Shown here one piece after another: positions 11,616 through 45,760 of a stretch of 64,000 nt of DNA (positions are counted from its first letter, which is position 1; every line of letters begins with the position of its first letter). The notes beneath the pieces are model-generated. The model was not told the origin of the DNA, made no database searches, and saw only the letters and a program-made list of their open reading frames with translations. The stretch comes from the human T2T-CHM13v2.0 reference genome, Homo sapiens, in the NCBI RefSeq assembly GCF_009914755.1, contig NC_060938.1, one strand, 5' to 3'. A program made the position numbers and the translations under genes.

Positions 11616-11929
11616 ATACATATGGAAAACTCTTTCTCCTCAATTCTGTGGGTCAAGAGATGTCCCGTTGCAAGACGTCCATTCGGCGTGGTCAGCCCAA
11701 TCCTGTCTATAAGGAGACCTTTGTTTTCCAGGTGGCCCTCTTTCAGCTGTCTGATGTCACGTTGATGATTTCCGTTTATAACAGGCGTACTATGAAGCGT
11801 AAAGAGATGATTGGCTGGATTGCCCTGGGCCAGAACAGCAGTGGAGAGGAGGAACAAGATCACTGGGAGGAGATGAAGGAAACCAAAGGCCAGCAGATCT
11901 GCAGATGGCACACTTTGCTGGAATCCTAG
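11616..11929 (+). CDS. SYT16: Synaptotagmin-16, last coding exon (C-terminal part of the C2B domain)
   Basis: Polypyrimidine acceptor ttttttttttgtcttag|AT. Translation (D)[103 protein letters not shown] has synaptotagmin C2B hallmarks (NPxYxExFxF, terminal WHxL) of the SYT14/16 type. Confidence 0.93.
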
Positions 11930-27999: not shown

Positions 28000-28920
28000 A
28001 GGGAGGAGAGTCCCAGAAGGCGGAAGATCCCGTACTGCTCATCCCCAAACGCCTCACCCCGGGTCACACCCACGAACTCATCCGGTTCTCCCTTCTCAGG
28101 GTCCTACTCCAAGGCGAAGAGTATCCCAGAGGAAGGGTCAGGGTCTTAAAAAAAAAAAAAAAAAAAAACACTGAGCCAAACCCCGCTGCTTCCTCAGCCG
28201 CTGAAAGTGCCGCCCCACCCCTCTCCCCAAACCCGACCTCCGTAGGGGACACCGAGCCAAGGCCTGCAGCGAGTGACCTGCCCGGGGAGGCGCGGGACCG
28301 AGGCTCACCTACCCGGGCCCGCGAGTCTCGCCCAGCCCCAGCCTCCCAACCCACTCTGCCGGCCCCAACTTAGGCGAGCGCAGTCGGGACCCTTCTGTCG
28401 GGGCTCTTTGTTCGCCGCCCCTCGGCGTTCCAGCTCTCAACCTTGCTCCCAGCAGCCCCCGCCGGCGCACTCGACCTACAGGAAAGTTGCTCCCGAGCTG
28501 TGGAGGGGCGTCATCGCCTCCTAGCAACGCTCCTAGCAACCGGGTAACATCTGCTCCCTGTGGTCCAATGCGAGCTGAGAACAGCTGCGCGCCCGCCTAG
28601 CGCTGCGAACCCGGAGTGAGAGGCGCTTCAGAGACTGGAGGGACGGACCTGCAGGAGCCAGGGCTGCCCGCCGAGCTGCAGTTGCCGCTACTGCCGCTGT
28701 CAGCGCCCGACTGAAGAGTGACAGCCGCAAAAGCAGGAGTGAGCACCGAACCCCGCGCTTCTACCTAACAGGTGCATGCGCCGATCTGGTGAGTGGACCC
28801 AGCTCACAAGGTATGTCTGGATTCATCCAGCCAGGTGCCTTCCTCCGAGCTCAGAAGGGACTCCTTTCCTTGAGGGGGAGGATAGGGACGTGTTCCGGGA
28901 TCCCACCCCGCCCCCAACCA
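28000..28920 (+). promoter_or_regulatory. CpG-island promoter and first exon of the downstream + strand transcript
   Basis: The only GC/CpG-rich segment in the window. It has a CCAAT box (28565-28569), tandem CCTAGCAAC RFX half-sites (28520-28540), and donors TCTG|GTGAGT (28788/28789) and CAAG|GTATGT (28810/28811). Confidence 0.85.
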
Positions 28921-29912: not shown

Positions 29913-30036
29913 ATCTCAGGTAACCATTCATGAGCCTGAGGCTGTGAGAAATGCTCGCTGTGCAAAGGGGAACTCTCACCAGATTTTCTGAAGCTGTTCT
30001 AGAAATACACTTTTCGGATTGATTCAGCATTACCAG
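29913..30036 (+). other. Candidate internal exon (possibly the decayed first coding exon of the SERTAD4-like gene)
   Basis: Acceptor tgtctgtctccttgtttcaag| and donor CCAG|GTAATT; all three frames contain stops. Confidence 0.45.
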
Positions 30037-32900: not shown

Positions 32901-34194
32901 GCACCTATATAGCTCTTTAGCGAAAAGGTACCCTGTGAATGAAAATTATTTCACCACTAGAGCAACTCCAGGTGAAACACAAATCAGATACCATATGAGT
33001 GAGGGCAGAGAGTCACCCAACTCCACGCGAATCCTCATGTGTTTTAAAGTGAGTAAAATTAATGATTAATTCAATCTTATGTTTTTTTACAACCCTTTTG
33101 GGATAGCAGAAGCAACGTTGGCGTGGATAGATGTTTTTGTTAATATACTCAAGCATGGAGTGGTGGTGGTAGTGATATCAAAGTGGAAGACAATGTGAGT
33201 GATATAGATCAGGTACTTTTAGAAAGGCTGCTATTATCCATAGGTTAGGGATTAAAACTCTTTTCTTTGAGTACCAGTCCTGGGTATCGAGGGAAGTTGT
33301 AGTATCTCTCTAGCATATCTCTAGGTATGGATTTCTTGGAACCCATATACTGCAATGTGCTTCCAAAAAAGCAATTTTCTTTCTAATTCATTTCTACTTT
33401 CCAAGGTAAAAGATGGGGTAAAAGGAAGCATCATTCCTCAGAATCAGGAATGCACTTCTAGGGGGTGGAAAATCAAAAAGTTTACCCAAGAAGCCTCCTG
33501 CACTTCGCCTCTAAATTTCTGTCATTAGCAGGGCCAGATCACGGCAGCAACTGGCTTTAGTGCAGCATCTAAGGAAACCTAATGGTGTTCTGTTTGGTTC
33601 AGAGACCATTACCATTGGAGCAGGATAGGCTTGTGGAACTGGTGGGGTTTTCTTTACTATTCCATGCCTGTGCTTGGGGTTATCCCAAGGGACATGGATG
33701 CAATCTAGTACCAGACAATGCTGCTGGTATCTTGAGAAACTCTTCTAAGTCATTGGCTCTCAGTATTCCTGGAAGTTCCTAAGAAAGTCTGCTCGAGCTG
33801 GAACTTGTTAGTAATTCTAAATTGCCAGTAAAGTCAATATTGTGCTTGGGGTGGATAAATCTGAAGAAACAGATTGCTCCATTGATTTGGAGATAAAACC
33901 TGACACTGAGCTCTGCTACCATAAAGGATATTATCCAGAAAGGTGATAGGCAAGGGGGTTATGAGAGAGAAGAAAGATGGCTGATGGAAAATTGTTAAAC
34001 ATCAACAGAGCCAAAGGTCTCCAGAAGGCACAGCATCATAGCCTTGAACTTTGCACCCATCTACCTTCTTGAATACACTCATGAATGCTTCATGCAGCCC
34101 ATGCTTAGCACTAAAGAGAGGACCAATGTCCTAGGTATAATATAATGCTGCTGAGCAGGATATGTACTTATGATTTCAAAATGAAGTCACTGCA

Positions 34195-37365: not shown

Positions 37366-39017
37366 TTACATCAATTAGTGAAACAGTTTAAAAAAAAAGT
37401 ACAAGTAATTGTCACACGGGATAACCCAAAGCTTCACCTAATTATTTGATTAAATCCTTAAAAAATATACCAAAGAAAATGCAGTTTACTAAAAAACAGC
37501 CCCTGAGAAACCTGGTTTCAGTGATGCTTTCTTTGTTCTCTCTACAATCAGCTTTGTTCTTCTTTCCTAAACTTTTGAAATCATTGAAAACTCTATATAA
37601 GCTGAGTTTGCTTACTGAATTCAGGGACTGTGTAGGTATAGTAGTAGCAACTATTGTCTTTGCTTCAGTTCACTTGTGAATTATCATGACATATTCATTT
37701 CTTTTAAGATCAGATACACCACTGTTTTAAAATTCTTCATTCCCTTAACAAAACATAACAACTATAACTTAAGGCTTTCTTGGGTTAATAATCCACAGTG
37801 ATGTCAGTGGAAAACTGGAATGCTTGGGAATGATTTTGTAGCTTTTCTTACTGACTGAGGAAAATCATTTAGCTACAAAAAGTTGCGGGAAGCTTTTGTA
37901 GCTTAGATGCACTGAGTTGGAGGACAAACTAGAAAAAGCAAATTCTTGAACACATTTAAAATATTTAAGCTTAGAAAAATTTAAGATTTTAGAGGAAAAC
38001 CATCAAATGTCTTGCTGTAGATTTATTTAACTAACACATACATTATTCATTCTTTTGTGAACTAAATGGTTTCAACACATAGAAATATTTGAGGATGTGT
38101 ATTAAGGGTAAAATAAATTATGTTTAAATATGAAGTTTCTTTCTGGCCTGGTCCCCCGAGGTTGAATGAGAATTGAACTGGACTCAATTTGTTTTCTAAA
38201 TTCATTCAGTGCTTTCTCTAGAAGCTGCTTGTCTTTAGCTTTGAAAGTAGATCTTGCCTCCTTTTTGTGATATGAGTGCCACCTAGAGTACACTCTGAGA
38301 ACTCCCTTAAGCACTATCGTTAAACTAAACGATAACTGAAAATTGGCTTTTGGAACTCCGTCCTTCCTTAAGCAAGTAAGAACCTCAGTAGCAATCGTAT
38401 TTTAAAGGAGAAAACAAAGGTCTTCACTTTCAGTATTATGACAAGGTCAAGTTTGCAAGTCAGAACGTTACCTAAATCTTTCATTTACTTAGAACACCAT
38501 TAAACCATGTGTTAGGACGATGGCTACACCATAATCATATCATAGAGTGTTTTGTCTACAGATACACCATTATTTCTTTAAAGTGTAATTGGGCTGCCAA
38601 CTATTTTATGCCAATTTGATTAACCTAGTGACACTAAATGATCTCTCTGTATTAGGCAGTTTAACTAAAAGAATGATGAAAAATTTCTTTTCTCCTCCCA
38701 TTACATTCCATTTCAAATTTGGGTGTGTTTTGACATTAAATGGCATGAAATAAAATAGTATATTGGTATTTGACTTCTGAGGGGCTGCATAAGGAAATAA
38801 ACATGAGTATCCTATCTAGAACATCTGTTTTGGGTCTGAATGGTGGTATTTTCCTGCCTGCAGGCTTTTCAATCCAGGGCAGTTGTCACTGCTTCACCAC
38901 GTTGAAGGGAGAATACCAATTTCCAGGATCACCAGTTTATTTTTATAGATAAAAGTTATATTATAAGATACTATTTGCCACAATAAAATCTAACCTTTCC
39001 CCAATTATTTTGTTTAG

Positions 39018-39133
39018 CTTATCCAACAAAAGTATTAACATATACATTAACAACGTCGAAAGTAGCCTACTTTAAGAGAAAATATGCAGAAGAAGAAGAT
39101 TTACATCAAGATTACCATGGGTATTTTCCAAAA
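39018..39133 (+). CDS. SERTAD4-like coding (or formerly coding) exon, 116 nt, phase 1 to phase 0
   Basis: ttattttgtttag|CT TAT CCA...TTT CCA AAA|gtaagg. Open frame xYPTKVLTYTLTTSKVAYFKRKYAEEEDLHQDYHGYFPK aligns without gaps to the recalled SERTAD4 segment [39 protein letters not shown]. Confidence 0.8.
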
Positions 39134-39243
39134 GTAAGGGTTTACTTATTATTATTTGTTCATTTTCATGAATGTTGTCAACATAAAAAGCTGTAGTTTT
39201 TGTTTTTCTAAATATAGATTTAATGATCATGTTTGCTTTCCAG

Positions 39244-39618
39244 CACCTGATATTACCTGAGGACAGAACTTGCATTCTCAAACTTTCTCTGGAGAAGCTC
39301 AGGTTTCTTGAAGACCCAGAAACCTACTTAAGAAGGTCTGTGTTAATTAACAATTTGCTGAGGAAGATACATCTAGAGACGGAGAAAGAGAGCTATGAAT
39401 ACTTTAAAGAAGCTCCCTGTTATAAGACTGCATATTCTGATACAAGAAAACGGCTGAAGTTTATGGTACAGGAATGCTGTTCTCAGTCTCTCTATTATGA
39501 AGAGCTGCATTCGTATCATATTGTGCCTTATGCTTCGGAGAATGCCATTTATGAAATGGGCTACACTAGCAGCCACTTGGAGCAAAATTCTCAGTTGCTT
39601 ATTTATAAAATGAATTAA
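39244..39618 (+). CDS. SERTAD4-like terminal exon encoding a SERTA domain (124 codons plus stop)
   Basis: Acceptor gtttgctttccag|CAC in phase 0. [38 protein letters not shown] carries the SERTA signature (SLxKL...LRRSVLIxN) and matches recalled SERTAD4 [38 protein letters not shown] at 26/38 positions. Confidence 0.85.
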
Positions 39619-41932
39619 AGTAACTGTTAAGTCCATTGATACTTTGTTTCTAAATGCTTGAACTGTTTATAGTGAAGATGTTAATATAAGGCACTCATTA
39701 CCAGTGCACTTGATATCAAAGATGAGATGCATGCTGAACTGATTGGAGAGAGCAATGGTTATTACTCAGCAGTCCTTAGAATCATCAAATTGAATAGAAA
39801 ATATGTTCACATATGATAAAGCGGTCAATTAGTGCTTTAGAAGCAAAGATTTTTTTTAAACATAAGATGTGTAGGAAGGGGCCTACGTTAAACAATTACA
39901 CAGATGAAAAATTTTCTTTTATGCCTTGATTTCCAAATTCTGCCACTCTTACTGGAAAGTAATGAAAGTAACAGATTAAATTGATAATGCCATGTCCCTG
40001 AGGATGAAGGGTGGAACACATTTAATTTTCTGTAAATGATATGAGGAAGGGCTGGTTCTTTCTGAAGTGCTTTGACTTGTCAAGCATTGTGCCAAATAAT
40101 TGACACCATTCTCCTTTTACCATTAGTAGCAATTCGAGATGGGGCAAAGACACTGCAACTAAACTGCTGAATGTAACAACCAGATTACTCCAAACTGATC
40201 CATTGTACTATTTTGCGGGGAGGGCTTAGACTTTTCTCTTTAAAAGTGAATTTTAACGAAATAGCCTTGCAGATGGGCTTATCTATAAGTTCTACAGGTT
40301 GGTTAAAATTTGTGGTGGGCCTTTAGTTAGCCGTTTACATTTTATTTGTTTTTTTTTTATAGGCTGTGAAGCTCAGGAAAAGGGTAGGCAGGTAAAATTT
40401 GTTTTTAATGAGTTGATACTTTTTAGAAACCTTATCTGCAAAAATTAATGAGAACAACAAATTCCACATGATGTTATTTCTTCATCTAGCTAAGAGTACA
40501 TTTAAGGCTGCCTGGATGAAACTTTGCACTGATTTTTGTATAATAGTTGATCATTCACTATTTGACAAATTGTTTCAGAATGCCTTTGGTGGTGAAGTTT
40601 AGATAAGTCCCTATGTTTTGCAATTTTACAGATAATTATTTAACAAGTTGGATAGATTCATGAAATTGTTTGAAGTGGTTCATACTGTTCTTTCAGGTTT
40701 GAGTGAGATGTCAGATTTCAGTGTCTGAAGTTTTGTCCTATGGAGCATATCATTTAAAGAATTGTCATTAACTGATAAAACAGATTGGAAAAACTAGGTG
40801 CCAAAGGTGTATTTAAGAAAATACCAAAGACTCAAAGATGAGTGTTAGGAAGACTATGATAATGAAGATAAGAATCTAAAGTAAGGATTGCATAGGACAT
40901 AGAAGAACATTGTTAAAGGGGTTTGGAATGATTTGCTTACTAATGTACTTTCAGAACACTTTATACATAATAATGGTAATCAAGGGCACTGCTTTAAATG
41001 AAGATACTACAGACCTTTAGGAATCATATGCCTTGGAAAACAATCTATGTATGGTGACTTGTCAACAAAGTATCTTCCCTAGTTGGATGCCAACTTGTAA
41101 CCAAGAAGACTTTCTTCTATTCAAGAGAAATTTGGTTTTAGTTTTGATTTAATACTTGGTCCCTCTAATTAATCACTGGGGTGATTAACATGAATTCTGT
41201 TGGTATAAAGAGTATTGGTTCCCTAATTAGCCTGCATTGTTGAAGACCACATAGATGTATTACTGATAAGACTATGAGGCTCATGTTTAATTACTCAATC
41301 AAAATTAGGAAGAAATGCTTTGGAAGAAACTAAAAAATTACAATTTAGGTTAATTTTTAAAGGCAATTTAGTATACATGATGAGCTAGCTTTGAAATACA
41401 GATTTAAATGTTTAAAAATTAATTTGAGGGCAAGATTTGGTACCAAAGTTTCAAAAATTTTATTTCACTGCTTATAAAATACTTTATCAGAACACTTATT
41501 TTAAAAAATAACATCTTATTTGAAAAACTCCAAATTTGATGGGATAGTTACACCATCATACAATTTCAAAGGTAGTATTAGCTTTCTAATACTTTAAAAT
41601 ATTTTCTGAAATGAACATTTCACTTGGTTTAGGACCGTGTCTGTAAGTAAAAGACACCAATGCTAATAGATATGACTTACAAAAATGCCACATATCGAAA
41701 TTGATTGAGGATTGAAATATATATACTTTGGCATTGAGAAGAGAGGAAGAGAAAAAAATAAAAAAAGTGTGACATTGTAATATTTATTGTATTTAATAAA
41801 TCTTGAAGAAAGAACTCTTGAGCAATGAACCAGTGACAGATATAAAAGCCTGTTTTATTTGATGACATCATTAACTGAGTTTTCTCATCTATACATTCAT
41901 ACATCGAGAAGGAACTGTCTTAAAAACCAGTG

Positions 41933-42074
41933 TTTCTTTTTTTTTTTAAGTTCTAGCGTACATGTGCAGAATGTGCAGGTTTGTTATATAGGTATACACG
42001 TGCCATGGTGGTTTGCTGCACCCATCAACCTGTCATCTACATTAGGTATTTCTCCTAATGCTATCCCTCCCCAG
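41933..42074 (-). mobile_element. Short 5'-truncated L1PA 3' end
   Basis: T-run then TACATGTGCAGAATGTGCAGGTTTGTTA..GGTGGTTTGCTGCACCCATCAAC..TCTCCTAATGCTATCCCTCCCC; CCAGTG occurs at both ends. Confidence 0.88.
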
Positions 42075-44242
42075 TGATATTTGTTAATATGCTTTTTTAA
42101 AAAAGTGTCTGCCTTGAAACAGGTAATTAAAAAATATCTCCTAGGGCATTTAATTATTTTTCCCAATAAACAACTCATAGATAACGGGTTGACTAATGTT
42201 ATCTTTATTTAGAAAATTTGTATGTAAACTGTGTAAACTTGTCTGAGTTAACCAATAGACTACCGGGGTTTTAGCATGGTAAACTGATATACAGGGAGAC
42301 CCAAATACAGGCTTGCTTTGCTGACTACCCAGCGTGCTTTATTACAGGAGATGCAAAAGGTGGAAGACCAGTTACACCTTTTTTTTTTTTTTTTTTAAAA
42401 CCTGGACATCCTTTCTCTGGTGACAAGAGCCATCCTTATGGTAAGGAAGGTGAGATAGAAAATGGAGAACCTTTGGTAATGTTGATCTTTCTTGTGGGTG
42501 TCCACCTAGCCTAAAAGCCAAGTGAAGAAGAACATAAAAAAGCAGAAGAGGAAAAATGAAGAAAAGAGGAAAAAGAGGGTGGGGCCAGAGAAATAAAGAG
42601 TAGGATTAGTAAGTGAAAGAAAAAGTTGCTTTGTTGTGTGGGGGGGGTGTTCTTGCTTGCTATACTCAATTTTGCTTTCCCGTGTCTGCTGTACACAAAA
42701 CACCTGATCTCTGCAATGTATTGCTCCTTTCTTTCATTCACCTGTGATGCATAAGACTAGATTATTTTCGGCATATCTACTGTTTGCAAAGTGTTACTAC
42801 TGAAAAATATCCCTGAAACTGAGCTCTTTGGGTGGATAAGCAAAGGAAAAATAGAAAATAATTAAGGTAAGGGAAAGGCTAAAGGATAAGCCTGTGTATA
42901 AATGGGAAATGGATAAGCTCAAATGCATTATCTGGTTTCAATGTAACACCCAAGATTTAACAAACTCAGTGCTAGAAGACTTGAAAATAAGTGTAATTTA
43001 CCACCATCTATTGAGCAGCTATTATGAGCCAGGCACTGTGCTAGGGCTGGGGATACATAAGTGAATAATGCACAGTCCCAGAACTCAGATTATTTGGTTT
43101 TGTTTTACCAAATCCAAATGCAGTACCTGCATTTCTCTTTTCCAAACTGAGATGGCTATCAAACATGTCTTTCAGAAAGTGTTTGCAGGTGAGAAGATGC
43201 GCAAGGTGAAGGAAAGTTTTCCTGACCCAGATCTTAGAAGGAAAGGAGAGGATACATTTTGCTTTGTGGCATATTTATTGTGGGCAAAAAGCTACTATTG
43301 CCTAAGGGAAGTACGGCTGACCTTAGCCCATCCCTGGGGCATATCTTGTGCGTGTGGTGGGGAGACAAATCAGGTAGGGAACAATTCCTTCTCGCCTTAC
43401 CTCTCTAGCTTCCATGTTCTTTTATGGAACAAATCAGATTAATACTAATGTTAAGGAGAGCCTTAAAGGAGAAAGAGAATCAATAAATCACAGCCTGAAA
43501 GTTGTGTATGTTGTGTGCAAGCTCAGAGGGGCAGTCTTCTTCAATTTGCCTTGTGCTGGTGAATTGCTTGAATGAACTTCGGTATTTCTTAACACCAGGT
43601 ACTGGAGCCCACCTTCTTTCTCTCCCTCTGGTTTCCTCTTTAAATCACAACCTGACCCCAGTCTTTATAGTCCATTGTAAGTGGAAGTTATAGCTCTATT
43701 CTTCACCCACACCTTGCTCCCTATCATTGATACTTAGAAGAAAGTAACAATTTGCAGTACTGGCTGAACTCCTTTGGGAAAGTTTCTGGAGTGTATCAAA
43801 TAAGAATTCATCATAGTAACATGGTCGTTACTGGCTGAACAAAATTCTTTTTGAGACTATTGTACTTAGTCATTAAATAATTGTTTACTAAGGCAATTTT
43901 CATGTTTCTAGAATTCAGTGTAATAGTTAACAGCTGTATATGTCTCACAAAAGAAACTACTTAGGTTGGAAACAATGGAAGGTTGTGTATAATTAATTCA
44001 ATCAGGTCATGAATATTTATGTAACATATGGCATTTTAATTTATATGTTCCCATTCTCATACTTCATTACTATACAGCAGCAACAAGATAAATTTCAGGT
44101 TTTTTGTTTTTTTATTAAGTGGGCCATGTCTAAAAGTTGTTACGTTCCTGGTTGAATATTATGGACAAAATTTCCCCATTAAAGTAGTTTTGTCTTTCTC
44201 AAGGATTATCCTTTAGGGTTGGGTGGATTAAAAACATTACAT

Positions 44243-44395
44243 TAGTGCTTCTTGAGCATACAAGTCACTAGGGATCTTGTGAAAATACAGATTCCTTTTA
44301 GTAGGTTTGGGATGAGGAATGAAGGTCTTCATCTCTCAAATCTCCCAGGTGATGTGGATGCTGCCAGTCCATCGACCACACTTTGAGTTGGGAGA
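44243..44395. mobile_element. MER5-family DNA transposon fragment
   Basis: GATCTTGTGAAAATACAGATTCC..CTCCCAGGTGATGTGGATGCTGCCAGTCCATCGACCACACTTTGAGT. Confidence 0.65.
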
Positions 44396-45760
44396 TTCTA
44401 CATCTTTTGAGAAATATCCACACTGAAGCCTATACTCTTAAACTTTCAAAGACTCTGTGTTCATGTCTGTGTTCTGCAAGAATTTTTTCTTTTAAGAAAT
44501 AAACTGCATAAAGTAAAATCAGAAAACCATAACACTGGTTTTCCAAATTTGCCACAAATACTGTAATACTCTGTAGAGTAAAATGCAAAGATTATTCCTG
44601 TTACAAGTTTTCTCTGTATCAAGTGCAGGAAAGGAACATGGGTAGAGTCTTGTACCATTCTTATCAGTCAGGAGATGACACGTGGTAAATTTCTCTTCTT
44701 GATTTTCCTCTTGATTATACTCACATAAGGGAGCTCCATTTGGTAACAAAGATGAAATTCTGTTCACAGTTAACAAGAATTTAGCAACTTCTTGCTTGGC
44801 AAAATCTGAGACAACCTTACAAAAACATCCTACATTAAATTCAGAATTTTGGGTAGCTGCATAAGCTGAAGATTATGGAAAACCTGAGCTGAAAATGGCA
44901 CCTGGATCTGTAACTTCTTGTCTTGAACTCTTTTTTGAGCTTTATTCTGTGAGAGATCTTCCCCTACAGTGATTTTTTCTGTTTCTCCTCAGTCGCTGGG
45001 GTCTCAGTAAGGGGTGGAGGATTGGTGTAAATGAGACAGTCACATAAATTGTCTAATTTGAGCATGCCAAGTGATTTTTGTCAGCCTCTTTTGGTCATAA
45101 AATTTTGGTATAGCTATTGTGAAATATAGTGTCATAAATTTGTCATAAGCCATTAATGAAGGAAGAGAAGCAGAAATTTATTTCTGTGGGAATGCACTCA
45201 AATATCAAGCAGATGGTGTTCTACAACATTTATTTGGGAAAATGTGTATCTGTTACATAATCTGAAATATGTCTTTTTCACATTTAAAAATATTTGGGTC
45301 ATGATTTAGAGTTTTTATTGGATTGTTTTTTAAACTGAGAGGAAGAAGAAAGGTAATTGTATTTTAAAACATTTGACATGTTACTAATAAAATTTTATTT
45401 CTGGTGAAATATAGGTGCCTTTGTTAAGTAGGGGAGGTGGGATCATGAACATCTGGCAGCTGCTGCATGTCCCTTTTTTCCAGAGGCATCGTTTTAAAGT
45501 CAAATGCTTATTTTCTTTCAGCAGTTTGTTTTCAGCACAGTTTGCTTAAGGATTTAGAAGATATTCCCAGTCTCCTGGCACAGTTTCTTCACTGAGTGAC
45601 CCTGAAATGGTTTTAAGATAGTGCAAGTCATTAAAAAGACACAACAGAACTGACTCCATTTAGGCATTATTTAAACATAACAACTATAAATCTCAGGGTG
45701 AAAGATAGCTCCTCTACCCAGTGAACAGCAGTGGGTGTGTGCATCATTCTCCATGATTCC

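What the first reader, a model, noticed from the sequence alone, without database searches (positions are those of the whole stretch)
39018..39618. Hidden SERTAD4 paralogue inside a locus regarded as lncRNA
Seen: two open exons with canonical GT-AG sites, separated by a 110-nt intron (39134-39243), splice in frame to give ...[78 protein letters not shown]...IYKMN*. There is no stop or frameshift across 491 nt. The ORF track shows only the second exon, with an intronic Met. Known (recalled): this is the SERTA domain of the TRIP-Br/SERTAD1-4/CDCA4 co-regulator family. The best match is SERTAD4, 26/38 identical in the core with mostly conservative changes. The upstream exon matches a SERTAD4 segment of the same 39-residue length, including TTSK-x-x-YFKRKY-x-EEED. 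Inference: a retained intron rules out a processed pseudogene, so this is an old, intron-bearing additional SERTA family member, either coding or a fossil.
Basis: partly seen in the sequence, partly recalled or inferred. Interest (0 to 1): 0.95.

Follow-up and report, generated by a model that had tools for sequence, protein, structure and literature searches.

The report
Known SERTAD4-like pseudogene with intact ORF
This is the human copy of an ancient sister gene of SERTAD4, already catalogued as the pseudogene SERTAD4BP (formerly LINC00643); its last two exons still carry an almost perfectly preserved protein-coding frame, but no usable start codon was found.

Summary
Exon 39018-39133 and exon 39244 onward have AG/GT borders and splice in frame across a 110-nt intron. 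Together they give a 162-codon open frame ending at TAA 39616-39618. Pfam finds a SERTA motif (E 4.4e-14) and the UPF0730 domain (E 3.3e-25).

SERTAD4 on chr1 is the closest human paralogue. It shares a 116-nt exon with identical intron phases. It also lies downstream of SYT14, just as this locus lies downstream of SYT16. A tree splits the two genes 100/100, and each clade runs from cartilaginous fish to mammals.

None of this is new. RefSeq calls the locus SERTAD4BP, Ensembl calls it a transcribed unitary pseudogene, and Pfam and UniProt hold the peptide.

What remains open is the coding status. The frame is 161/162 identical to camel, fur seal and bovids. However, no in-frame AUG exists in human exons 1, 2 or a third candidate exon. 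Gene models from other species also disagree on the N-terminus.

My best reading (0.6) is a recently silenced unitary pseudogene. The alternative (0.3) is that it is still translated from an unannotated start. A 2025 preprint studies its "conserved exon 3" as lncRNA without mentioning the SERTA frame.

The parts
28505..28578 (+). Core promoter just upstream of the annotated start of transcription. It holds a tandem pair of the 11-mer CTCCTAGCAAC and a CCAAT box.
   Evidence: Sequence. Gene models from turtle, beaver and bichir that wrongly translate this stretch still match it: P0099 E 8.9e-6, P0096 E 4e-23, P0109 E 0.065. This points to DNA conservation. Reading the 11-mer as an RFX-type site is recall only and was not tested.
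28579..28810 (+). Exon 1 of NR_015358.2, a G+C-rich leader. It ends in phase 1.
   Evidence: Hub annotation; donor AAG|gtatgt. One frame is open over all 77 codons but has no ATG. It would be in frame with exon 3 if exon 2 were skipped. The fur seal and pangolin models P0091 and P0090 make that join. The frame of the fur seal model's Met (ATG at 28568, upstream of the annotated start) has a stop at codon 11 in human.
29913..30036 (+). Exon 2 (124 nt, ends in phase 1). It is a degenerate relative of an exon that is open in frame in crocodilian and turtle models.
   Evidence: tblastn of P0009, P0035 and P0100 to 29916-30029, E 0.002-0.02, 47-56% identity. Human has three in-frame stops and no in-frame ATG. 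It also holds two out-of-frame ATGs with short ORFs.
33854..33942 (+). Candidate alternative 5' exon inside intron 2.
   Evidence: The N-terminal exon of the bank vole model P0007 matches here (73% over 30 aa, E 3e-8). The donor AAAG|gtgata at 33942/33943 is phase-compatible with exon 3. Human has GGG GTG where the vole has its Met, and the compatible frame is closed by TAA with no ATG.
39018..39133 (+). Exon 3 (116 nt), encoding the box TTSKVAYFKRKYAEEE.
   Evidence: Residues 11-26 are at least 95% conserved in the alignment of 125 relatives plus human. The SERTAD4 homologue is also 116 nt, with a phase-1 acceptor and a phase-0 donor.
39134..39243 (+). Intron 3 (110 nt, GT...AG), at the same position as the roughly 1.9-kb SERTAD4 intron.
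39244..39618 (+). Coding-type part of exon 4: 124 codons plus TAA. The SERTA motif is at 39274-39378 and the UPF0730 domain at 39472-39609. The human-private Glu codon GAA is at 39553-39555.
   Evidence: Pfam; genome scan. The peptide is 99% identical to camel and dolphin, 96% to koala, 90-93% to birds and crocodile, 64% to basking shark. Glu is found in 0 of 113 relatives at that column. Of the 32 relatives at least 80% identical to human, 31 have Gly and 1 has Ser.
39619..45409 (+). Long 3' untranslated part of exon 4.
   Evidence: Hub annotation. The spliced transcript is 6638 nt.
11616..11929 (+). Last coding exon of SYT16, the upstream neighbour on the same strand (synteny anchor).
   Evidence: Its best paralogue in the genome lies at chr1:209399348-209399656 (84% identity), which is 80.6 kb upstream of the SERTAD4 SERTA exon on the same strand.

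Best explanation
The locus is the human orthologue of a vertebrate-wide gene, here called SERTAD4B, which databases name 'SERTA domain-containing protein 4-like' or 'UPF0730 protein'. It is the sister of SERTAD4.

Origin. The pair arose when a block holding a synaptotagmin gene and a SERTA gene was duplicated before jawed vertebrates diverged. The results are SYT14-SERTAD4 on chr1 and SYT16-SERTAD4B on chr14.

Function where the gene is active (inferred from the SERTA family, not tested here). The last two exons encode a small protein with three parts: a basic TTSK/YFKRKY box, a helical-hairpin SERTA motif, and a short C-terminal UPF0730 motif. It most likely works as a nuclear adaptor that binds partner proteins.

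Status in human. The promoter, splicing and transcript persist, and the 162-codon frame is intact. However, the annotated mRNA offers no in-frame AUG, and several upstream AUGs open short out-of-frame ORFs. The frame is therefore most likely not translated. This makes it a transcribed unitary pseudogene, and any loss of coding is recent, within roughly the last 20-30 million years.
For: Identity and age.
- SERTA and UPF0730 Pfam hits.
- 90 of 97 candidates and 50 of 142 are relatives. Those that carry source names come from cartilaginous and bony fishes, amphibians, reptiles, birds and mammals.
- In the tree of 36 rows, the 20 4B-type rows and 16 SERTAD4 rows split at 100/100. Cartilaginous fish, bichir, teleosts and tetrapods appear on both sides.
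- Both genes have the 116-nt exon with the same phases.
- Both lie downstream of a SYT14/16-type last exon on the same strand.

No start codon.
- The spliced NR_015358.2 frame is closed by a stop in exon 2.
- It has no ATG before a Met 112 codons into the 162-codon frame.
- Exon 1, exon 2 and the 33854-33942 element give no in-frame ATG.

Curated status. Ensembl lists it as a transcribed_unitary_pseudogene (supplement of PMC7555810). The hub's RefSeq table lists it as a transcribed_pseudogene.

One human-private change. Gly to Glu occurs at a column where 31 of the 32 close relatives keep Gly.

Structure. The AlphaFold2 model of the elephant orthologue shows a helix pair at residues 36-85 with block pLDDT 70-92. 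The rest is below 65.
Against: The missing AUG is not shown to be a human lesion. N-termini upstream of the TTSK box differ in nearly every named model, including mammals whose exon 3-4 peptide is 161/162 identical to human. The same apparent defect may therefore exist where the protein is clearly under selection.

Human carries only 1 private residue in 162 and no stop. Under neutrality, P(at most 1 change and no stop) is 0.09 for 20 My and 0.02 for 30 My at 0.5e-9 per site per year (the rate is recalled). Constraint lasted until at least the ape lineage and may still hold.

Phase-compatible joins that would keep the frame open exist in human: exon 1 to exon 3, and the SYT16 penultimate exon to exon 3.

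One proteomics table lists Q86TS7 once (PMC6798591). This is weak evidence.
Confidence: 0.6

Rival explanations
1. The frame is still translated in human, as it must be in other mammals, from a start that annotation misses. Candidates are a non-AUG codon, a leader that skips exon 2, another 5' exon, or a splice from the SYT16 penultimate exon into exon 3. SERTAD4BP would then be a live sixth SERTA-domain protein gene.
For: - The frame is 161/162 identical to five laurasiatherian models, and the ORF is intact.
- Predicted N-termini are inconsistent across species, so a conserved canonical start has not been found anywhere.
- The human exon 1 frame is open over 77 codons and in frame with exon 3 if exon 2 is skipped.
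- The human SYT16 donor at chr14:56291637 is phase 1. Joining it to exon 3 reads through to the normal stop. The buffalo model P0093, named synaptotagmin-16 isoform X1, makes exactly this join.
- 6 of the 50 longer hits fuse C2 domains to SERTA/UPF0730.
- The promoter is conserved and the 3' UTR is long, as in an mRNA.
Against: - Two curated resources call it a pseudogene.
- No in-frame AUG was found, and upstream AUGs are present.
- Phase compatibility has a one-in-three prior.
- Fused models are what gene predictors produce when a downstream ORF lacks a start. Five of the six fused models carry only 'hypothetical protein', or a name from a source I cannot tie to RNA evidence.
- The join after ...GQQ used by several of them is impossible in human, because no GT follows that codon.
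- The human-private Gly to Glu change argues for relaxed constraint.
Confidence: 0.3
2. The locus works as a nuclear long non-coding RNA, and the conservation of exon 3 reflects an RNA function, as proposed for LINC00643 in glioblastoma.
For: bioRxiv 10.1101/2025.09.16.676559 (abstract, section 9 and passages read) reports four things. The transcript is nuclear. Exon 3 alone suppresses glioblastoma cell growth. The mouse homologue does the same. The RNA contacts a HIF1A enhancer.
Against: - The conservation is fully explained by a protein. The frame is matched by 140 relatives, with a Pfam domain on either side of the intron-3 junction region.
- 52 columns are at least 95% conserved.
- Substitutions are conservative, and the exon structure is shared with a coding paralogue.
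- The preprint does not contain the words SERTA or pseudogene, so the coding origin was not controlled for.
- An RNA role in human could coexist with pseudogene status. It does not explain the conservation.
Confidence: 0.09
3. It is a chance ORF, or a processed (retro-copied) SERTAD4 pseudogene.
For: None found.
Against: - The chance of an open frame this long is about 4e-6.
- Pfam E-values are 4e-14 and 3e-25.
- Introns lie at the ancestral positions and phases.
- Synteny with SYT16 mirrors SYT14-SERTAD4.
Confidence: 0.01

Closest known systems
SERTAD4 (human chr1:209.48 Mb in this assembly)
   Same: Both have the SERTA motif: 26 of 38 core residues are identical, and 42-44 of 74 across the box plus motif against three mammalian SERTAD4 proteins. 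Both have the TTSK/YFKRKY exon of 116 nt with the same intron phases. The start of the UPF0730 stretch aligns to the RKRL...CC...Y region of cartilaginous-fish SERTAD4. Both lie downstream of a SYT14/16-type gene on the same strand.
   Different: SERTAD4 has a first coding exon with an AUG and a long Ser-rich C-terminal half; the proteins are 300-390 aa. The 4B type ends about 85 residues after the SERTA motif with the UPF0730 motif. Its intron 3 is 110 nt rather than about 1.9 kb, and it evolves more slowly in tetrapods, as the branch lengths show. None of the listed SERTAD4 proteins carries PF15827.
Vertebrate SERTAD4B orthologues, filed as 'SERTA domain-containing protein 4-like', 'UPF0730 protein' or 'SRTD4 protein' (Pfam PF06031 + PF15827)
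   Same: Same two-exon coding body. Identity to the human exon-4 peptide is 99% in camel, dolphin, fur seal and bovids, 96% in koala, 90-93% in birds and crocodile, 81% in frogs, 64% in basking shark, and about 45-57% in teleosts.
   Different: In those species the gene is annotated as coding, mostly by automatic pipelines and with mutually inconsistent N-termini. In human it is annotated as a pseudogene and carries one private Gly to Glu change.
Transcribed unitary pseudogenes (GENCODE class)
   Same: It is expressed and spliced, stands at the ancestral locus, has no functional copy elsewhere, and has orthologues annotated as coding.
   Different: The body of the ORF has no stop, no frameshift, and only one private substitution. 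The only 'lesion' is the absence of a start, and that was not shown to be specific to human.
LINC00643 as a tumour-suppressive lncRNA (bioRxiv 10.1101/2025.09.16.676559)
   Same: It is the same transcript: four exons, about 6.4 kb, close to HIF1A and SYT16. Its 'most conserved exon 3' is 39018-39133.
   Different: The preprint ascribes the conservation to RNA function. Here it is explained by the coding history of the exon.

Membership tests
SERTA-domain family (SERTAD1-4, CDCA4) | SERTA motif, Pfam PF06031, above the gathering score | tested here: met
   52.3 bits against a cut-off of 25, E 4.4e-14, model positions 1-36 of 36. It is one of 9 SERTA matches in the genome scan.
SERTAD4 subfamily (SERTAD4 plus SERTAD4B) | A TTSK-x-x-YFKRK box encoded by a separate 116-nt exon, phase 1 at the acceptor and phase 0 at the donor, directly upstream of the SERTA exon | tested here: met
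   Both human loci have it: 39018-39133 and chr1:209478177-209478292.
SERTAD4B orthologue group | C-terminal UPF0730 motif (PF15827) after the SERTA motif | tested here: met
   88.2 bits against a cut-off of 25. It is precomputed on most 4B-type hits and on none of the SERTAD4 hits listed.
SERTAD4B orthologue group | Groups with 4B-type sequences and not with SERTAD4 in a tree | tested here: met
   The split has 100/100 support. The human end branch is 0.0056 and sits next to camel.
SERTAD4B orthologue group | Position directly downstream of SYT16 on the same strand | tested here: met
   In human the SERTA exon lies 27 kb after the SYT16 last coding exon. For other species this is shown only indirectly, by 6 fused SYT16-SERTA gene models.
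Protein-coding gene | An in-frame initiation codon in a transcribed exon | tested here: not met
   There is no in-frame ATG in exons 1-3 of NR_015358.2 or in the 33854-33942 element. Non-AUG starts and unannotated exons cannot be excluded with these tools.
Protein-coding gene | Purifying selection on the human branch (dN/dS), ribosome footprints, peptides | not testable with these tools
   No orthologous nucleotide sequences, Ribo-seq data or MS data were within reach. There is only an indirect Poisson bound.
Unitary pseudogene | A disabling change that is specific to the lineage, while orthologues stay functional | tested here: inconclusive
   Human has three stops in the exon-2 frame that is open in crocodilians and a turtle. 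No mammalian model uses that frame beyond 6 residues (P0094). The starts of mammalian models disagree.
Processed pseudogene | No introns, copied away from the parent's genomic context | tested here: not met
   Introns are at the ancestral positions, and the synaptotagmin neighbour is conserved.
Long non-coding RNA | No conserved open reading frame | tested here: not met
   The 162-codon frame is conserved from sharks to mammals.

The most novel reading that the evidence does not exclude
The 162-codon SERTA/UPF0730 frame is still made into protein in human brain, and in mammals generally, by a non-canonical route. The route could be non-AUG initiation, an exon-2-skipping leader, or an in-frame SYT16-to-exon-3 splice giving a synaptotagmin-SERTA hybrid. 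SERTAD4BP would then be a live sixth SERTA-domain gene, and the growth-suppressing effects reported for 'LINC00643 exon 3' would need to be re-tested as peptide effects.
Probability: 0.25. Interest if true: 0.6.

Novelty: already known. Interest (0 to 1): 0.3.

Why it matters
As a discovery it adds nothing to the catalogue, because the locus already bears the name SERTAD4BP. Two points are still useful.

First, the ORF body is as well preserved in human as in species where the gene is called coding. In addition, no species shows a convincing conserved start. The pseudogene label therefore rests on weaker ground than usual and is cheap to test with existing Ribo-seq, proteomic and comparative data.

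Second, current functional work treats the transcript as a lncRNA and builds on its 'conserved exon 3'. That work does not note that the exon is conserved because it encodes the TTSK/YFKRKY box of a SERTA protein. This changes which controls those experiments need, namely frame-breaking versus synonymous mutants.

Tried and rejected
- **Faulty script.** A first script for the family alignment used too narrow a pattern and picked 1 sequence. It was redone. There, 125 of the 128 proteins P0001-P0128 carried the anchor motif and were aligned, and 3 were dropped.
- **Solved structures.** A profile search of the PDB gave 0 hits at E up to 1.
- **Structure model.** The AlphaFold2 model has mean pLDDT 59.3 and pTM 0.35. 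Only the SERTA helices are confident. I ran no fold search, because it would be meaningless at that confidence.
- **Exon 2 against the SERTAD4 N-terminus.** Comparing 4B exon-2 peptides with the SERTAD4 first coding exon gave only E 0.45-0.8 matches around a SE-x-CS motif. This is not evidence.
- **Join after ...GQQ.** Goat, sheep, green turtle and one fish model join SYT16 to the SERTA exons right after ...GQQ. No GT follows those codons in human, so this route is rejected for human.
- **Intronic Met starts.** Camel, koala and unnamed models start at Met codons directly upstream of exon 3. In human the camel-type frame is shifted and the koala-type frame is closed by TAA at 38984-38986 with no Met. 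I read these as prediction artefacts.
- **A turtle 'MDDK' start.** It resembles the vole start, but it lies upstream of the promoter-like stretch in the model's order, so it is not the same exon.
- **Literature search for translation evidence.** The term logic let in papers without LINC00643. None of the 15 papers listed holds the name, so the search says nothing either way.
- **Wrong donor picked.** In one search my loop picked a GT other than the real SYT16 donor. One search corrected this.
- **Unused loci.** L015 and L016 were fetched but not used.
- **dN/dS and PhyloCSF.** Not computed, because no orthologous DNA was within reach.
- **First report submission.** It was returned for a schema slip (the confidence field was misplaced) and re-sent unchanged in content.

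Full report
**What is there**

The window is chr14:56296001-56360000 of T2T-CHM13 (hub note, confirmed). At 39018-39133 lies a 116-nt exon with an AG acceptor and a GTAAGG donor. A 110-nt intron follows at 39134-39243, and the next exon starts at 39244.

Read in the frame whose first full codon is 39020, the two exons join without shift. In local base composition such a frame is open by chance with P about 4e-6.

Pfam finds two domains in the 124 residues of exon 4:
- the SERTA motif (PF06031, 52.3 bits, E 4.4e-14, residues 11-45)
- the UPF0730 domain (PF15827, 88.2 bits, E 3.3e-25, residues 77-122)

Exon 3 alone matches no Pfam family.

**What it is related to**

A six-frame scan of the same genome with the SERTA model gives 9 matches. 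The loci lie on chr2, chr14 (two), chr19 (two), chr1 (three) and chr9.

Exon 4 matches the chr1:209.48 Mb locus best, at 62.8 bits. The next best loci score 32.3 and 24.6 bits. That locus encodes SERTAD4, as shown by tblastn with mole-rat and mole SERTAD4 proteins.

- Identity is 42-44 of 74 over the TTSK/YFKRKY box plus the SERTA motif for three mammalian SERTAD4 proteins.
- Identity is 63-67 of 149-153 for three cartilaginous-fish SERTAD4 proteins. In those the alignment runs on into the start of the UPF0730 stretch.

The SERTAD4 exon that holds the TTSK/YFKRKY box is chr1:209478177-209478292. Like exon 3 here, it is 116 nt long, with a phase-1 acceptor and a phase-0 donor at the same residue. 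This is shared ancestral gene structure, so a retro-copy is excluded.

**Synteny**

The last coding exon of SYT16 lies at 11616-11929 of the window. Its best paralogue in the genome is at chr1:209399348-209399656 (84% identical). That is 80.6 kb upstream of the SERTAD4 SERTA exon, on the same strand. Here the SERTA exon lies 27 kb downstream of the SYT16 exon, also on the same strand.

The two SERTA genes therefore sit in duplicated synaptotagmin-SERTA blocks. That the chr1 synaptotagmin is SYT14, and that such blocks date from the early vertebrate genome duplications, is my recall. No tool output here gave that name.

**Age**

Protein searches with exon 4 returned 90 relatives of 68-217 aa among 97 candidates, and 50 relatives of 218 aa or more among 142 candidates.

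Identity to the human exon-4 peptide, by group:

| Group | Identity |
|---|---|
| Camel, dolphin, fur seal, bovids | 99% |
| Koala | 96% |
| Birds, crocodile | 90-93% |
| Frogs | 81% |
| Basking shark | 64% |
| Coelacanth | 61% |
| Teleosts | 45-57% |

A search with a Danio SERTAD4 protein brought in SERTAD4 proper from mammals, a bird, anoles, three cartilaginous fishes, bichir, sturgeon and many teleosts.

A maximum-likelihood tree of 36 rows (153 columns) separates 20 4B-type rows from 16 SERTAD4 rows with 100/100 support. Cartilaginous fishes, bichir, a mormyrid and tetrapods appear on both sides. The duplication therefore predates the jawed-vertebrate crown. The tree has no outgroup, so this rests on the species content of the two sides.

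**Already known**

- The hub's RefSeq table names the locus SERTAD4BP, 'SERTA domain containing 4B, pseudogene', with exactly these exons.
- The supplement of PMC7555810 (passages) lists ENSG00000186369 LINC00643, right after SYT16, as a transcribed_unitary_pseudogene. Orthologues are annotated as coding in many primates and other mammals. The rabbit 'orthologue' spans only 156 bp.
- The main text of that paper (passages) says there is no coding orthologue in mouse or rat, and none in gorilla.
- UniProt Q86TS7, 'Putative UPF0730 protein encoded by LINC00643', appears once in a proteomics table (PMC6798591, one passage).
- Searches for SERTAD4BP, SERTAD4B and UPF0730 found 1 paper each (listings only for PMC12519442). 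LINC00643 found 36 papers.
- Three papers hold SERTAD4, SYT14 and SYT16 together, with only 1-2 occurrences of each term (listing only). I found no paper that describes the paralogous blocks, within those searches.

**The open point: is it dead?**

Spliced as NR_015358.2, the SERTA frame is closed by a stop 12 codons before the end of exon 2. It has no ATG until a Met 112 codons into the 162-codon frame, and the leader holds three out-of-frame ATGs with short ORFs.

- **Exon 2.** It is a degenerate relative of an exon that is open in frame in crocodile, alligator and a turtle model (E 0.002-0.02). Human has three stops there.
- **Exon 1.** One frame is open for all 77 codons and would be in frame with exon 3 if the 124-nt exon 2 were skipped, but it has no ATG. 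Another frame matches the fur seal model's Met-start at 93%. In human, however, it has a stop at codon 11, and the ATG lies 11 nt upstream of the annotated start of transcription.
- **A third candidate exon at 33854-33942.** It matches the N-terminal exon of a bank vole model (E 3e-8) and has a phase-compatible donor. Human has no ATG there, and the compatible frame is closed.

So no canonical start was found in human.

The same is true, in effect, of every other species I could see. Upstream of the TTSK box, the N-termini of the named models differ from one another almost without exception. Several simply read into the intron in front of exon 3, in frames that are not conserved between camel, koala and human.

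Six of the 50 longer hits solve the problem by fusing SYT16 to the SERTA exons. The buffalo model, named synaptotagmin-16 isoform X1, joins the SYT16 penultimate exon directly to exon 3. In human that donor (chr14:56291637, phase 1) would also read through exon 3-4 to the normal stop. The phase match has a one-in-three prior, and such fusions are typical predictor artefacts.

**How well is the body preserved?**

In an alignment of 125 relatives plus human:
- 52 columns are at least 95% conserved. They cover the TTSKVAYFKRKYAEEE box, most of the SERTA motif and two later positions.
- Five laurasiatherian models are 161/162 identical to human.
- The single difference is Glu (GAA, 39553-39555). 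At that column, none of the 113 filled sequences has Glu. Of the 32 relatives at least 80% identical to human, 31 have Gly and 1 has Ser. It is the only human-private residue.

The frame has 355 non-synonymous and 33 stop-creating sites. At a recalled rate of 0.5e-9 per site per year, neutral drift would leave at most one change and no stop with these probabilities:

| Time since constraint was lost | Probability |
|---|---|
| 6 My | 0.64 |
| 20 My | 0.09 |
| 30 My | 0.02 |

The frame was therefore under protein-level constraint until at least the ape lineage. It either still is, or was released recently.

I could not compute dN/dS, because no orthologous DNA is within reach of these tools.

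**How it most likely works**

*Shown:* the domain content, and a confident helix pair over the SERTA motif. The model is of the elephant orthologue from a 34-sequence alignment. Block pLDDT is 70-92 for residues 31-80, below 65 elsewhere, and the mean is 59.3. No solved relative exists.

*Inferred from recalled knowledge of the SERTA family* (co-regulators that bind cell-cycle and chromatin proteins): where the gene is active, it makes a small nuclear adaptor. Its basic box, SERTA hairpin and C-terminal motif would be partner-binding elements.

*For human*, I lean (0.6) to the curated reading. The transcript persists from a conserved promoter, but the frame is not translated. I give 0.3 to continued translation from an unannotated start.

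**A practical consequence**

A 2025 preprint (10.1101/2025.09.16.676559; abstract, section 9 and passages read) reports that LINC00643 and its 'most conserved' exon 3 suppress glioblastoma growth, and treats both as lncRNA. The words SERTA and pseudogene do not occur in it.

The exon is conserved because it encodes the TTSK/YFKRKY box, so that conservation is no argument for an RNA function. I could not open the preprint's supplementary figures (construct maps).

**Verdict**

The residual interest lies in the unusually intact ORF and the unexplained lack of a conserved start codon across vertebrates.

Noticed in passing
window 33854-33942: An unannotated exon-like element in intron 2 matches the N-terminal exon of a bank vole gene model (73% over 30 aa, E 3e-8). 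It has a GT donor in the phase needed for exon 3. Human has no ATG there.
   Followed up: partly
window 28505-28578: A tandem pair of the 11-mer CTCCTAGCAAC plus a CCAAT box sits just upstream of the annotated transcription start. Gene models of turtle, beaver and bichir that mistranslate this stretch still match it, so the promoter DNA seems deeply conserved. Its resemblance to RFX-type sites is recall only.
   Followed up: partly
proteins P0093, P0094, P0095, P0098, P0113, P0115: Six gene models from bovids, a turtle and two fishes fuse synaptotagmin-16 C2 domains to the SERTA/UPF0730 exons. The join made by the buffalo model would also be in frame in human (donor chr14:56291637 to window 39018).
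   Followed up: partly
window 39553-39555: This is the only human-private residue of the 162-codon frame. It is Glu, where 31 of 32 close relatives have Gly and none of 113 relatives has Glu. I could not tell whether it is fixed in humans or shared with other apes.
   Followed up: partly
G000 chr9:14603361-14603465 (L007), chr1:86393195-86393275 (L008), chr1:206905251-206905337: Three further weak SERTA-motif matches lie outside the five expected genes and this locus. One has only a 38-aa open frame and one has an internal TAG. They are probably decayed copies.
   Followed up: no
G000 chr4:71505730-71506218 (L011): A SYT14/16-like copy is 72% identical to the SYT16 last exon. The match to the preceding exon abuts it, and a 203-aa frame is open across both. 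It looks like an intron-less (processed) copy.
   Followed up: no
window 39018-39133: Exon 3 holds two out-of-frame ATGs. The second sits in ACCATGG context and opens a 7-codon ORF across the splice junction. A scanning ribosome that had not already started upstream would be diverted there.
   Followed up: no
protein P0013 (elephant): The elephant model is only 143/155 identical to human. It is more diverged than koala (151/162), which hints at relaxed constraint or poor sequence in that lineage.
   Followed up: no
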